Below, in pieces: positions 14,601-33,192 of a stretch of DNA of 34,437 bases (within the stretch, counting starts at the first letter, position 1; every line of letters begins with the position of its first letter). The stretch comes from a virus. Its lineage: Duplodnaviria; Caudoviricetes. The notes under the pieces are model-generated. The model was not told the DNA's origin and made no database searches. It was given only the letters and a program-made list of their open reading frames with translations. The stretch is taken from IMG/VR virus record IMGVR_UViG_3300032212_000101, positions 1 to 34,437 of that record; one strand, given 5' to 3'. The translations under genes were made by a program, and so were the position numbers.

Positions 14601-14612
14601 TTTTTCACCTTT

Positions 14613-14628
14613 GCTGTCTCACGACAGT
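14613..14628 (-). repeat. Late-gene leader hairpin ACTGTC-GTGA-GACAGC (copy before the gp7-like gene)
   Basis: Identical to 18820-18835; GNRA-type loop. Confidence 0.75.
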
Positions 14629-14660
14629 TTCAATAATTATAACTTATATTAAGATAAATT

Positions 14661-18791: not shown

Positions 18792-18835
18792 TTGTCTCCC
18801 GACAATTAAAGGGGTTCATGCTGTCTCACGACAGT
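18792..18835 (-). repeat. Two leader hairpins (TGTC-GKGA-GACA) before the capsid gene
   Basis: Copies at 18820-18835 and 18792-18805; the second contains the GGAG RBS. Confidence 0.75.
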
Positions 18836-18836
18836 A

Positions 18837-19583
18837 TTAATTCCCATAAAGTTTATTCGCTGGCATCGGCCCGGCCCACTTGGTGGAGCCTGTTCCCGCT
18901 GCCGCCGTTGCTGTTGAGAGAGTACCCGGAATTGATTTAGTTATAGCTTCCTCAGTTTGCGCTTTTAATTTATCAGCCATCTCAGCTTCAACCTTGGCGC
19001 GTACTTCTGCCTCGATTTTCGACTTAAGATCATCAACAGAATTAACACCTTTAAACTCGCTGTGAGTCTTAGCCTGTTGATAAATAAACTCGTAAGGATG
19101 CTGTTGCTGTAAAGCCTGCTGCTGTAACAAGGGATTTGAACTGACCATTTCATTGAAAAATACATCAACCATTTGATCAAAATCCTCGCCATGCTGCTGC
19201 CTAGCCATCATTTCTGACATATCGTAAAAACGATTATCCATCTGTGATTGCAACTGCTGAGCCGTAAAAGCTATTGCCTTGTCTGGTTCAACATAAGCAT
19301 CTGGCGTTTCCGCTTGTTGCTGCTGGGCTTGCTCTAAAGCTTGCCTTTTCCTTACTTCGTCTAGTGCTTTTGCCTTAAATGCACTTACTTCGGACCGTAA
19401 CTTTTCAATCTCAGTCTTTGTATCATACGCTTCACTCGTTTCAGCCGTAGGCGCTGCTTGCTCGGTTTCTACCTCCTGATTCTCATCGGTGGCTTTCACT
19501 TCGCTTGTATCTACCGTGGACTCTTCAACAACAGGTTCAACCGCCGCTGGTTCATCCCCAACATCATAAATCGAATCACTCAT
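18837..19583 (-). CDS. Scaffolding protein
   Basis: Acidic N-terminus and coiled coil; between portal and capsid; AGGAG RBS. Confidence 0.8.
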   Translation of the reverse strand: MSDSIYDVGDEPAAVEPVVEESTVDTSEVKATDENQEVETEQAAPTAETSEAYDTKTEIEKLRSEVSAFKAKALDEVRKRQALEQAQQQQAETPDAYVEPDKAIAFTAQQLQSQMDNRFYDMSEMMARQQHGEDFDQMVDVFFNEMVSSNPLLQQQALQQQHPYEFIYQQAKTHSEFKGVNSVDDLKSKIEAEVRAKVEAEMADKLKAQTEEAITKSIPGTLSTATAAAGTGSTKWAGPMPANKLYGN

Positions 19584-21598: not shown

Positions 21599-21603
21599 GT
21601 CTT

Positions 21604-21619
21604 GCTATCTCCCGACAGT
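21604..21619 (-). repeat. Leader hairpin ACTGTC-GGGA-GATAGC before the portal gene
   Basis: Variant of the same motif; overlaps the RBS. Confidence 0.7.
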
Positions 21620-21670
21620 ATAATGTAGATTTTATGCCATTAATTGATTGTAGTCTATGATAAGTCATAT

Positions 21671-24647: not shown

Positions 24648-24874
24648 TAATCACGCGCCTTTATTTCATTCATAACATCGTTAATATCTAATTCAATGAT
24701 CTTGCCGTTAAAGAATAACCGGGTATCTTTACTGGCTACCGCAGCTAATAGCTCATCCATACTTAGTAGACCGCAGGCAATTTTTGAAGTCATCGCATTA
24801 TAATTAAGCGTTACTTCTGAGTTACCGGCTTTTTTTATTCTGTGTTCTGTTAGGCTAACTACATTTCCCATCAT
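24647..24874 (-). CDS. Hypothetical protein
   Basis: ATGA overlap; MGNVVSL.EHR N-terminus. Confidence 0.65.
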   Translation of the reverse strand: MMGNVVSLTEHRIKKAGNSEVTLNYNAMTSKIACGLLSMDELLAAVASKDTRLFFNGKIIELDINDVMNEIKARD

Positions 24875-25413
24875 GCCGCCCTCTTACATTGACTGCCCCT
24901 GAAAAGCTCCTTAAAAGCCCTTACAGGTGGGTTAAAACCGTATATAAACTTTCGTGTAATGTCGCCGCGCTTCTCACACGTACTAACCACATAAAACTGT
25001 ATGTGATCGTGAATATCAACTTTTGTAATTTCGCCATCTTCACGCATTGCGGCAAGAATATTGCTTATAGTTGATTGGCCTTTCTTGAATATCTTAGCCA
25101 GCATTGGACCTGAAAACTCTTGACCTTTATGCTCGTATATCCAGTTTCTAACCTTCTGCTTTACGGTTTCCTCCGTGGTTTCGTCTAGTTCAGCAATAAC
25201 CTCGTAAACCTTGAGATCAGCGCCGGTTCCATGCTCTCGCTTTTTATAGCCTACATGCTTAATACAGCCTTTTTGCTTAAGTACAAATATAGCCTTACAT
25301 ACAATCCAGTTAGGAATATGCTTTTTAGCGTCACTGATACTGTGTGAGGTGAATTTTCCACCTTGATTTAAAATATAACGCTCTGCTGTTTTTCTTTTCT
25401 CTGCTGTTGCCAT
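24871..25413 (-). CDS. Tandem winged-helix DNA-binding protein
   Basis: Two repeats of helix-F[TS]-HTH-[L/M]..[K/D]G.I-wing; AAGGA RBS. Confidence 0.65.
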   Translation of the reverse strand: MATAEKRKTAERYILNQGGKFTSHSISDAKKHIPNWIVCKAIFVLKQKGCIKHVGYKKREHGTGADLKVYEVIAELDETTEETVKQKVRNWIYEHKGQEFSGPMLAKIFKKGQSTISNILAAMREDGEITKVDIHDHIQFYVVSTCEKRGDITRKFIYGFNPPVRAFKELFRGSQCKRAA

Positions 25414-25432: not shown

Positions 25433-25491
25433 TAATAACAGTCTGATCAAGCTGACACTAAAAATCAGTGCAGCTTATCAGGGTGCTAGCT
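25433..25491 (+). other. Integron attC site (59 bp), 3' core mutated GTT>GCT
   Basis: R'' TAATAAC, 5-bp spacer, L'' GATCAAGC ... L' GCTTATC, 5-bp spacer, R' GCTAGCT. Unpaired C and A on the top strand correspond to the canonical extrahelical G and T on the bottom strand. Confidence 0.8.
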
Positions 25492-25662
25492 ATCAAAAAT
25501 ACGACTTAGTTTCTCCATCACCGCGCCCCTTAAAACCAAATTAAACAGTCTAGGTTTATTCTTGTGCCAGTTGTTTAATGTCTGTACGCTTTCGCCTGTT
25601 ATCTCTGAAAGCTCAAGCAGGCTTTTTAGTCCTGCTTGCTTACATAGTTCACTAGGTTTCAT
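25486..25662 (-). CDS. 58-aa HTH protein, likely the cassette autorepressor
   Basis: MKPSELCKQAGLKSLLELSEITGESVQTLNNWHKNKPRLF; ATGA overlap. Read by hand. Confidence 0.75.
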   Translation of the reverse strand: MKPSELCKQAGLKSLLELSEITGESVQTLNNWHKNKPRLFNLVLRGAVMEKLSRIFDS

Positions 25663-25898
25663 TTATACACACTAGGTAGCTCTTTAAGCTCCAAGAACAT
25701 CTCGTTAAAAATATGTGTTATCGGCTTTACTATGTCATCGCCATTTTCAACAGTTCTCATTAAGCCGATAACATAACAACCATCATCCAGCCATACATGC
25801 GCTCGACCACCGTGTTCATCCTCCATGCTTAAAACTGGAAAAATATCAGCTCCGTTTTCTAATTTCGCCGCTGCAAATGGTTTTGTTTTAACAAACAT
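25659..25898 (-). CDS. Cassette hypothetical protein (79 aa)
   Basis: GAGGG RBS. Confidence 0.65.
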   Translation of the reverse strand: MFVKTKPFAAAKLENGADIFPVLSMEDEHGGRAHVWLDDGCYVIGLMRTVENGDDIVKPITHIFNEMFLELKELPSVYK

Positions 25899-25900
25899 TT

Positions 25901-26059
25901 TTAACCCTCTCTTTTAATAATTTCAGCGTTATCATTATTCATTGCTTTATGCTCTAAACATTCTGATAAAGTCATCCATTTTGTTGAGTATTCTTTATCA
26001 ATAATACTGTCTGTCTTTGTTGATAATTCTTGCTCTGTATATTTAATTCTGTAATTCAT
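25901..26059 (-). CDS. Cassette hypothetical protein (52 aa)
   Basis: GAGG RBS; first gene after the cassette promoter. Read by hand (MNYRIKYTEQELSTK...). Confidence 0.6.
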   Translation of the reverse strand: MNYRIKYTEQELSTKTDSIIDKEYSTKWMTLSECLEHKAMNNDNAEIIKREG

Positions 26060-26101
26060 TTTATAACCTCTTTGTTGTGTATTTTCCTAACCAGTGACTA
26101 T

Positions 26102-26130
26102 ATATTACTATAACTATTTTAGTTAATCAA
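26102..26130 (-). promoter_or_regulatory. Cassette promoter with a palindromic operator
   Basis: TTGATT-17-TAATAT; perfect inverted repeat TAACTA-ttt-TAGTTA (26111-26125) in the spacer. Confidence 0.7.
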
Positions 26131-26146
26131 GTGATTTAGTATAAAT

Positions 26147-26208
26147 AGCTAACAAATAAATTAAGCGCGATAACATAAAGCGTTGCGCCTTATTAAGTGT
26201 CGTTATTA
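26147..26208 (+). other. Integron attC site (62 bp)
   Basis: R'' AGCTAAC ... AATTAAGCGCGATAAC / GTTGCGCCTTATT ... R' GTTATTA. Imperfect palindrome with two extra top-strand bases; the right spacer is slightly long. Confidence 0.7.
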
Positions 26209-29096: not shown

Positions 29097-29765
29097 CTAA
29101 ACAGGCTTAATATCTTTCAATGCTTCTTCAATATCACTGGCTAAATAATCTTTACCACCGATATTTACTGTAGGCTCATTCTTTGCTTCTACATCTATTC
29201 CTGAAATCTCTTTAAAAATAGCCGCGTCGAAGTTTGGAAGATCAAATAATTTAGCCCTATCCTCTTCACTTGCATTATCCCATGATCGCTTCCATGCTTC
29301 GTGGTAATCGTAAGACTTCAAATAACCGTCTACCACTTCCCATTTTGGATTGTCTTCTTTTTCCTTATCCGTCATATCGCATCCATAAATCCATTCTTTA
29401 GTCTCAAAATAAAAGAAATCCGGAAATGATATATCATTAAATTTAACACCTGAATCTTTATTAAATATTCTTACTGTTGGCTCGGTAGTGTTCAGGTAGC
29501 CTGTGTTCCGATTTCCTACGTTCCAATTTCCTGCGTTCCAATCGCCTGTGTTCCGATTTCCTACGTTCCAATTTCCTACGTTCCAATTTCCTGTGTTCCG
29601 ATTTCCTACGTTCCAATCGCCTGTGTTCAGGTAGCCTGTGTTCCGATTTCCTACGTTCCAATCGCCTGTGTTCCGATTTCCTACGTTCCAATTTCCTGCG
29701 TTCCAATCGCCTGCGTTCCGATTTCCTGTGTTCCAATTTCCTGTGTTATTCTTTGAATCACTCAT
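29097..29765 (-). CDS. Phage N-x-G-x-x pentapeptide-repeat protein
   Basis: 17 NTGNW-type units, then a conserved FNK...GYLK...Y.EAW...W...LPNFD..IF.EI.GI tail. Confidence 0.85.
   Translation of the reverse strand: MSDSKNNTGNWNTGNRNAGDWNAGNWNVGNRNTGDWNVGNRNTGYLNTGDWNVGNRNTGNWNVGNWNVGNRNTGDWNAGNWNVGNRNTGYLNTTEPTVRIFNKDSGVKFNDISFPDFFYFETKEWIYGCDMTDKEKEDNPKWEVVDGYLKSYDYHEAWKRSWDNASEEDRAKLFDLPNFDAAIFKEISGIDVEAKNEPTVNIGGKDYLASDIEEALKDIKPV
29493..29747 (-). repeat. 17 tandem 15-bp coding repeats
   Basis: Units such as GTTCCAATTTCCTGT, GTTCCGATTTCCTAC and GTTCCAATCGCCTGT on the plus strand. Confidence 0.9.
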
Positions 29766-29843
29766 TTTCTCTCTCCTGTTTTTTACTTATTCTAGCTACT
29801 GTGTAGCGGGTGTCTAATCAGTATTTTTTATGGGTGGTATAAA

Positions 29844-32060: not shown

Positions 32061-32085
32061 CTCTCTCTCCGTTGTGTATGGTGTA

Positions 32086-32781: not shown

Positions 32782-33192
32782 ATGAAAAAGAAGTTTTATG
32801 CAATTAAGAAAGGCTTTAAATGTGGTGTTATTGTTAAATCATGGAGTGAGTGCGAATCATTAGTAAATGGTTATAAAAGCGCAGTATTTAAGGGTTTCCC
32901 TGACCATGAATCTGCTAAAAAGTGGCTTGGAAAACCTGAACCAGTAGAGCAAAAACAGATTATTCAGAAAGATGGAACTATATTTTTGCCAGCTACAAAC
33001 AAAAAGAATAAATACGGATATTACAAAGAGCGATATTACACAGTAAAAGGCCAGTTATTAGCGCATCATGGAACTACTATAGGGTGTAACTGTGATGTAA
33101 ATAACCTTTATTCTGGATTCGAGCCGCCGTGGGATTTATTGCCAATTAATGAAGCGCTAGATTTACAGCTATTAAGCTCATCACCGTTATAA
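32782..33192 (+). CDS. RNase H1 N-terminal hybrid-binding (Cauli_VI/viroplasmin) domain protein with no RNase H catalytic domain
   Basis: KFYAIKKG...GV...SW.EC...V.GYKSA.FKGF.....A..WL; AAGGA RBS. Confidence 0.8.
   Translation: MKKKFYAIKKGFKCGVIVKSWSECESLVNGYKSAVFKGFPDHESAKKWLGKPEPVEQKQIIQKDGTIFLPATNKKNKYGYYKERYYTVKGQLLAHHGTTIGCNCDVNNLYSGFEPPWDLLPINEALDLQLLSSSPL

What the first reader, a model, noticed from the sequence alone, without database searches (positions are those of the whole stretch)
25433..26208. A phage genome with its own attC site that has captured an integron gene cassette, without an integrase
Seen: two attC-like palindromes about 0.7 kb apart. The first has textbook geometry: 59 bp, 7-5-8...7-5-7 boxes and extrahelical G and T on the bottom strand. 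Their cores are swapped: R'' of site 1 (TAATAAC) complements R' of site 2 (GTTATTA), and R'' of site 2 (AGCTAAC) complements R' of site 1 (GCTAGCT, one change from GTTAGCT). Known: this is the footprint left when IntI inserts a circular cassette at G/TT of an attC. The genome appears complete and has no tyrosine recombinase. Cargo genes face opposite to the usual cassette polarity, in line with the phage operon, and look phage-like. Inference: phages may use host integron integrases in trans to swap accessory modules at attC sites, forming a phage-integron cassette exchange system.
Basis: partly seen in the sequence, partly recalled or inferred. Interest (0 to 1): 0.9.

Follow-up and report, generated by a model that had tools for sequence, protein, structure and literature searches.

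The report
Backward integron cassette inside a phage
This phage carries a 717-base gene cassette between two integron-type recombination hairpins, with its genes facing backwards, and the same kind of cassette sits between such hairpins in other viral and metagenome DNA, so phages likely swap these modules using an integrase probably borrowed from the host.

Summary
Both attC-like sites are real (25433-25491; 26147-26208). A covariance model built only from bacterial attC ranks them first and second in the window, and site 2 has VCR-like three-bulge geometry. The 717-bp unit between the crossover points (promoter-like stretch, two orphan ORFs, 58-aa HTH) is a true cassette. The same promoter-HTH unit, with different middle ORFs, lies between matching cores in five other loci, three of them viral. 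A terminase relative has its own array upstream of the terminase. All are reverse-polarity. The cargo looks phage-derived, not captured from a bacterial integron (1 weak hit in 400 Gammaproteobacteria). The GTT-to-GCT change is silent in the HTH stop codon and probably locks the cassette. Three claims are weaker than stated. The genome is not shown complete (linear, 88%). No empty-site relative was found. The 'swapped core' also arises in about 12% of ordinary neighbouring sites. No tyrosine recombinase is encoded, so host IntI in trans is likely but untested. Phage attC clusters are published (Qi 2023); reverse polarity was not found in nine literature searches. This scan noted reversed phage arrays (14 findings) and the 'giant cassette' reading on other DNA before.

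The parts
25433..25491 (+). attC site 1 (top strand), 59 bp: R'' TAATAAC, two extrahelical bases (bottom G16, T23), R' GCTAGCT with a broken crossover triplet; probably inactive
25486..26202 (+). 717-bp gene cassette between the two crossover points; GC 34.4% against 40.7% for the window
   Evidence: the same end modules lie between matching cores in L019, L021, L024, L029, L036
25486..25662 (-). 58-aa HTH protein, predicted repressor of the cassette promoter; its stop codon (TAG) lies inside R' of site 1
   Evidence: phrog_409 E 1.4e-6; PF13443 19 bits, under the cut-off of 22; 138 homologs; 10 of 35 aligned homologs are also 58 aa and end in F-x-S
25659..25898 (-). 79-aa variable cargo ORF, no family
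   Evidence: 46% homolog in phage locus L007 with no attC called; only itself; no usable Atlas hit
25901..26059 (-). 52-aa variable cargo ORF, no family
26102..26130 (-). promoter-like stretch (TTGATT-17-TAATAT, read by eye) with an imperfect palindrome at 26107-26123 (predicted operator)
   Evidence: 86% identical to L019 and 79-83% to L021, L022, L023; the consensus scan alone is not above chance (6 found, 8.2 expected)
26147..26208 (+). attC site 2, 62 bp: R'' AGCTAAC, three extrahelical bases (16, 20, 24), intact R' GTTATTA
   Evidence: geometry as for VCR G16/T20/T24 in PMC2727003
26193..26735 (-). 180-aa replication-initiator-like gene; its last codons run through R' and the spacer of site 2
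   Evidence: phrog_270 E 5e-11; homologs are of similar length and end at the same place
24871..25413 (-). 180-aa predicted winged-helix protein starting 20 bp from R'' of site 1; backbone gene, possibly an old domesticated cassette
   Evidence: C-terminal homolog at the same position in L005; Atlas feature hits to HTH clusters at 0.91-0.93

Best explanation
The 717-bp unit is a reverse-polarity gene cassette of a family shared among phages, lying between two integron-type attC sites, and it was likely inserted by attC x attC recombination catalysed by an integron integrase that the host probably supplies in trans. Shown: both sites have attC anatomy; the unit's ends are the cognate G|TT and AAC cores; the same promoter-HTH frame with other middle genes occurs between cognate cores elsewhere; the genes run opposite to normal cassettes, so the recombining bottom strand is the coding strand; and no tyrosine recombinase lies in the contig. 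Inferred: (1) bottom-strand hairpins fold on single-stranded DNA during phage replication, and host IntI inserts a circular cassette at G|TT. (2) Reverse polarity keeps the cargo co-oriented with the phage operon, with the stop codon built into R'. (3) The cassette brings its own promoter, which the HTH would repress and which could also drive downstream phage genes. (4) The T-to-C change in R' of site 1 is silent for the HTH (TAA to TAG) but breaks the crossover triplet, which would fix the cassette in place. Whether site 1 was the phage's own self-complementary landing pad (about 60%) or the end of an older, decayed cassette (about 40%) is open.
For: Anatomy. The model was validated on seven held-out bacterial loci, where 54 of 54 matches >=20 bits fell on the expected strand. 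Mobility: L019 and L021 carry the HTH ending at an intact GTTAGCT and close with (A/C)GCTAAC, among different neighbouring attC-like sites. Similarity to L019 is confined to the two cassette ends (25487-25641, 75%; 26047-26165, 86%). L024, L029 and L036 hold the unit between 7/7 cognate cores. Over six arrays, 16 of 17 cassettes have 7/7 cognate cores, the window's being 6/7, and 16 of 17 are reverse by longest ORF; bacterial cassettes ran 38 same, 10 reverse, 1 none of 49. HTH genes end in TAAC in 10 of 23 viral loci, against 19 of 183 background ORFs. L008 (terminase 64%) has an array upstream of its terminase. G550 is complete, has the cassette and has no PF00589. The computed empty site pairs 7/7 and folds at -15.2 against -10.9 kcal/mol. 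Phage attC sites recombine with IntI1 (5 of 6 tested, PMC9892861). The palindrome differs where the HTH differs (L036, by eye).
Against: No recombination was tested, and the host and its integrase are unknown. The contig is 88% complete, so a recombinase could lie in the missing part. No relative with the empty site was found. The run's contig spans 23088-29517 with no joint at the sites (contigs drop rare variants). Site 2 does not fold better than shuffles, and site 1 scores under 20 bits. The promoter-HTH module also occurs with no attC called: the model called attC in 3 of the 26 viral HTH loci (default filters for 23 of them). The sites were picked by eye, which favours matching cores.
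Confidence: 0.7

Rival explanations
1. Same cassette, but the recombinase is not host IntI. It would be a phage-encoded or helper tyrosine recombinase, such as a short Xer-type enzyme, lying in the unassembled part of this genome or on a co-infecting element.
For: The record is linear and 88% complete. G551, which carries the same cassette family, encodes a 204-aa tyrosine recombinase.
Against: The G551 enzyme lies about 15 kb from the array and scores 14 bits against the IntI cut-off of 265. Complete G550 has the cassette and no PF00589. The sites match bacterial IntI-linked attC geometry.
Confidence: 0.12
2. Fossil block: the two sites and the cassette were assembled by an integrase in an ancestor and then moved or were kept as a block by RecT-type recombination. 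Nothing is exchanged at these sites now.
For: R' of site 1 is broken. The phage encodes RecT. Sites nearer the terminase in L008, and the left site in L036, are decayed. The module occurs without called attC in many phages. No excised form was seen.
Against: Site 2 keeps GTT and full stem pairing, and site 1 keeps a perfect stem. Sister arrays keep 7/7 cognate cores. This differs from the best explanation only in present activity.
Confidence: 0.1
3. The whole phage is one giant cassette. It integrates into the host's integron through its own attC and took a neighbouring cassette along on excision.
For: Removing the 717 bp leaves a site with 7/7 cores and a better fold, and Rep stays open (186 aa against 180). 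TAATAAC matches 0 of 81 bacterial R' at 7/7. No integrase was found. Qi et al. describe a Vibrio prophage whose ends lie at two attC sites.
Against: No repressor-like hit in the ORF scans. No close prophage relative in 401 Gammaproteobacteria (best 36%). The cargo is phage-like, not a bacterial cassette. First-R''/last-R' matching is 7/7 in 0 of 4 other arrays. R' of site 2 coincides with the natural end of Rep, as expected for a secondary site.
Confidence: 0.06
4. The hairpins are terminators or chance palindromes, and the module is an ordinary phage moron.
For: Site 2 has unremarkable free energy. Single weak attC calls in phages can be noise (PMC13676570, passages).
Against: Both sites rank top under two scorers. 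Neither is called as a terminator. Boundaries recur at cognate cores in five other loci.
Confidence: 0.02

Closest known systems
[quoted passage not shown] 2023, PMC9892861; parts 1-4 of 7 read, supplement passages)
   Same: Two or more attC sites close together in a phage without intI; the authors show IntI1 recombines 5 of 6 such sites and propose phage-integron exchange.
   Different: The parts read do not describe systematic reverse gene polarity, a cassette family shared among phages, a promoter-HTH cassette or a locked site. They suggest illegitimate or homologous uptake of the sites.
Integron gene cassettes and attC sites (VCR and aadA7 types; Bouvier et al. 2009, PMC2727003, passages; review PMC8946536, passages)
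   Same: R''-L''/L'-R' anatomy, extrahelical bases on the bottom strand, crossover at G|TT, cognate cores at cassette ends.
   Different: The genes run backwards, so the bottom strand is the coding strand and the stop lies in R'. The cassette has three ORFs and its own promoter-like stretch. There is no intI or attI, and one crossover triplet is broken.
CALIN in bacterial genomes (Cury et al. 2016, PMC4889954, passages)
   Same: [quoted passage not shown]
   Different: Here the array lies in a phage operon, with one site overlapping the end of a replication gene.
Phages that integrate with a host recombinase at a folded single-stranded site (CTX-phi and XerCD; recalled, no call)
   Same: No own integrase and a hairpin recombination site.
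   Different: No integrated copy, repressor or lysogeny evidence was found here, and the site is attC-type, not dif-type.

Membership tests
attC site | R''/L''...L'/R' inverted boxes, 57-141 bp | tested here: met
   59 and 62 bp; length range from PMC12901181 passage
attC site | Extrahelical bases on the bottom strand at conserved positions | tested here: met
   Site 1 G16/T23; site 2 A16/G20/T24; the nature of base 16 is not critical in VCR
attC site | Intact AAC/GTT crossover triplet | tested here: not met
   Met for site 2; site 1 has GCT, while L019 and L021 keep GTT at the same place
attC site | Scores with an attC covariance model | tested here: met
   Own model from 21 bacterial sites, not IntegronFinder's: 25.8 and 17.6 bits, top two in the window; site 1 is under 20 bits
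attC site | Recombined by IntI as a folded bottom strand | not testable with these tools
   Needs a bench assay
integron gene cassette | Unit bounded by cognate G|TT and AAC cores and found in different neighbourhoods | tested here: met
   6/7 here; 7/7 in L019, L024, L029, L036 and 6/7 in L021
integron gene cassette | Gene read on the top strand towards its attC (usual polarity) | tested here: not met
   All three ORFs are reversed; 16 of 17 reversed in six phage or metagenome arrays, against 38 of 49 same-strand in bacteria
integron gene cassette | Present in a bacterial integron array | tested here: inconclusive
   1 weak HTH hit in 400 sampled genomes, no attC called near it; L019 and L021 are too short to assign
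CALIN | At least two attC within 4 kb | tested here: met
   Two sites 655 bp apart
CALIN | No intI nearby | tested here: met
   0 PF00589 matches in 34,437 bases; at least 8 kb are sequenced on each side of the sites
complete integron | intI gene and attI site | tested here: not met
   No tyrosine recombinase; attI was not searched (no profile available)
integrase-less temperate phage using a host recombinase | Integrated copy flanked by hybrid sites | tested here: inconclusive
   No close prophage in 401 sampled genomes; host unknown
integrase-less temperate phage using a host recombinase | Lysogeny repressor | tested here: inconclusive
   No hit among the ORFs scanned, but the genome is 88% complete and many ORFs are orphans

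The most novel reading that the evidence does not exclude
With the cassette removed, the phage is itself a single giant integron cassette. It enters its host's integron through its own attC site using the host's SOS-induced integrase, leaves the same way, and trades accessory cassettes at that site, giving lysogeny and module exchange without any phage recombinase.
Probability: 0.06. Interest if true: 0.92.

Novelty: new variant of a known kind. Interest (0 to 1): 0.62.

Why it matters
Integron cassettes are treated as a bacterial system, and the source of new cassettes is a long-standing open question (recalled; PMC4889954 calls the mechanism unknown). Here one cassette family, a promoter plus variable small genes plus an HTH regulator, can be followed across several phages at exact crossover points, always back to front. 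That points to a phage-side cassette pool running on integron chemistry, probably with the host's integrase. It would give phages a programmable slot for accessory genes and make the stress-induced host enzyme a tool of its parasite. This locus is a compact test case: two short sites, a computable empty site and circular form, and a natural one-base lock.

Tried and rejected
Empty-site relatives: none found. Searches (blastn, 0 records covering 80%; no confirmed viral locus for Rep or the 180-aa gene; 14 terminase loci, most not reaching the position). Read, none continued as site 1 and the viral one lay in a coding gene; dropped. The site-2 motif gave 0 viral hits. The promoter motif gave 4 viral hits: L103 is a related module with degenerate cores; L101, L102 and L104 showed no attC >=11 and were dropped. 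One search gave 3 hits, one of them (L020) the window's own record, dropped. Site 1 against plasmids gave one chance hit. Rfam gave nothing relevant. The sequence-only model R1 gave site 2 a partial 4.3 bits and missed site 1. The first loose scan did not separate signal from noise. Laid contigs showed no joint at the sites, which is weak because contigs drop rare variants. Cargo ORFs had no PADLOC or NCBIfam hit. First-R''/last-R' matching as a general rule was not supported (0 of 4). A possible decayed 'swapped' left site in L036 was non-canonical and was not counted. Nine literature searches listed no paper on reverse-polarity phage cassettes or phage integration by IntI; subscription papers and bioRxiv supplements are not covered.

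Full report
CONTEXT. The window is a 34,437-base virus record. It has a portal, terminase, capsid and head-closure set, RecT, NinB-like and replication-initiator-like genes, and comes from a microbial mat run. It is classed linear at 88% completeness and has no terminal repeat. Contigs of the one holding run stop at the same two ends. Completeness is therefore not shown. A six-frame search for tyrosine recombinases found 0 matches at E<=1, while all 14 control genomes rang. ORF scans (59 proteins against PHROGs, 57 against Pfam of which 54 were the window's, 13 against NCBIfam) showed no integrase and no repressor.

THE SITES. Site 1 (25433-25491) has the stated boxes and bottom-strand bulges G16 and T23, and folds far better than shuffles (z -3.49, 0 of 200). 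Site 2 is 26147-26208. Its free energy is ordinary, but its stem pairs with three bulges at 16, 20 and 24, the positions reported for VCR (PMC2727003, passages), where the identity of base 16 mattered little. To get an outside yardstick I found IntI in 83 of 151 genomes of one order and fetched 20 flanks (19 used, one being 352 bases). A geometry score found 53 sites >=13 on the expected strand and 1 on the other. It gave the window's sites 14.8 and 14.6, the next best being 11.4, and 60 shuffles gave none >=14. I wrote this score after seeing the sites, and a stricter version missed site 2. A covariance model from 21 of the bacterial sites, chosen with that score and mostly three-bulge, ranked site 2 (25.8 bits) and site 1 (17.6 bits) first and second in the window at exact coordinates. 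On seven held-out loci, 54 of 54 matches >=20 bits lay on the expected strand. It is not IntegronFinder's model.

THE CASSETTE. Between the crossover points lie 717 bases (GC 34.4% against 40.7%) with, on the minus strand, a promoter-like stretch, ORFs of 52 and 79 aa, and a 58-aa HTH whose stop lies inside R' of site 1. Ten of 35 aligned homologs have the same length and end in F-x-S. A DNA pattern for that end found two other metagenome contigs. In L019 the gene ends at an intact GTTAGCT, a different 65-aa ORF follows, then the same promoter stretch (86%), then AGCTAAC, all among other attC-like sites. L021 is built alike with two other ORFs. Of 26 viral HTH loci, L024, L029 and L036 hold the unit between 7/7 cognate cores. 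The model called no attC in the other 23 (default filters), so the module also lives without recognisable sites, though HTH genes end in TAAC in 10 of 23 readable loci (three near-identical) against 19 of 183 background ORFs. Over six arrays read by eye, 16 of 17 cassettes have 7/7 cognate cores and 16 of 17 are reverse by longest ORF; the exception is an HTH cassette whose HTH is reverse. Bacterial cassettes ran 38 same, 10 reverse, 1 none of 49. L008, a relative with 64% terminase identity, has a reverse array 1.4 kb upstream of the terminase match; it is the only one of 14 terminase loci with a call, and most do not reach this position. The HTH occurs in 29 phage records and weakly in 1 of 400 Gammaproteobacteria, with no attC called near it. 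The cassette thus belongs to a phage-side pool; capture from a bacterial array is not supported.

THE SWAP. R''2/R'1 pairing is what any cassette shows (36 of 49 at 7/7 in bacteria). Only R''1/R'2 is special. For it: no cognate GTTATTA lies within 13 kb to the left, TAATAAC matches 0 of 81 bacterial R' at 7/7, background is 15 of 357, and the computed empty site pairs 7/7, folds at -15.2 kcal/mol and leaves Rep open at 186 aa. Against it: such swaps reach 7/7 in 6 of 49 bacterial and 2 of 15 other phage or metagenome pairs, first/last matching fails in 4 of 4 other arrays, and R' of site 2 coincides with the natural end of Rep homologs, as a secondary site would (attG sites: seen only as a mention in PMC12901181). 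Arrays such as L008 decay towards the terminase, so site 1 may end an old cassette. I put a resident self-complementary site at about 60%.

MECHANISM. Shown: anatomy, boundaries, recurrence, polarity and lack of a recombinase in the contig. Inferred: host IntI acts in trans. Phage attC sites work with IntI1 (5 of 6; PMC9892861). A complete phage with this cassette has no PF00589 (G550), and the one recombinase seen (G551, 204 aa) is distant from its array and far under the IntI cut-off. Folding is favoured on the lagging-strand template (PMC8946536, passage). If the origin lies to the right of the sites (in the replication gene, or near the skew minimum at 32070), the bottom strand is that template; the origin is not established. 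The HTH probably represses the cassette promoter: the palindrome in the spacer is conserved with this HTH type and differs in L036, whose HTH differs (by eye). The GTT-to-GCT change is silent at the stop codon and would block excision, which suggests domestication. The run's contig crosses both sites without a joint.

KNOWN AND NEW. Phage CALINs are published (17 in 10,705 genomes; PMC9892861, parts 1-4 of 7 and supplement passages read). By the definition in PMC4889954 (passages) this locus is a CALIN, and it is not a complete integron. Reverse polarity and a cassette family shared among phages were not found in nine searches of the open-access library. This scan's own notes list 14 findings of reversed phage arrays and one giant-cassette reading (e1-9884300); these are unchecked leads, not support. 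The giant-cassette reading is not excluded, but no repressor hit and no close prophage in 401 genomes leave it at about 6%.

VERDICT. A real feature and a new variant of a known kind; interest 0.62.

Noticed in passing
   Followed up: partly
window 29097-29765 (-): 222-aa pentapeptide-repeat protein with a 15-nt tandem repeat at about 29443-29792.
   Followed up: no
window 32782-33192 (+): 136-aa protein with an RNase H1 N-terminal (Cauli_VI) domain as first gene of the rightward operon, where a repressor might be expected.
   Followed up: no
L008 471-1929 (-): Terminase relative with five attC-like sites and four reverse cassettes, all with 7/7 cores; sites decay towards the terminase.
   Followed up: yes
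L109 16853-19609 (-) (G549): Reverse array of at least seven attC sites, each cassette with a different 7/7 cognate core, including very short 48-52 bp sites.
   Followed up: partly
L103 312-383, 605-674, 1468-1529 (-): attC-like hairpins (22-28 bits) whose cores read TAAT...ATTA instead of TAAC...GTTA, around a related promoter module with another palindrome; possibly a changed core specificity.
   Followed up: partly
L106 1477-2091 (+) (G551): 204-aa catalytic-domain-only tyrosine recombinase in a phage with a reverse array about 15 kb away; not IntI by TIGR02249.
   Followed up: partly
L019 1-215 and 705-1030 (+): Very short, apparently gene-less or truncated attC units beside the HTH cassette.
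   Followed up: no
L116 8741 (+) (G551): The first cassette of this array starts at a G|TTATGT with no attC upstream, a candidate attI-like or secondary site (by eye).
   Followed up: no
window 14609-14650, 18816-18857, 21600-21621: Repeated 22-nt palindromic motif in front of or between morphogenesis genes, a possible late regulatory signal (families D10 and D14).
   Followed up: no
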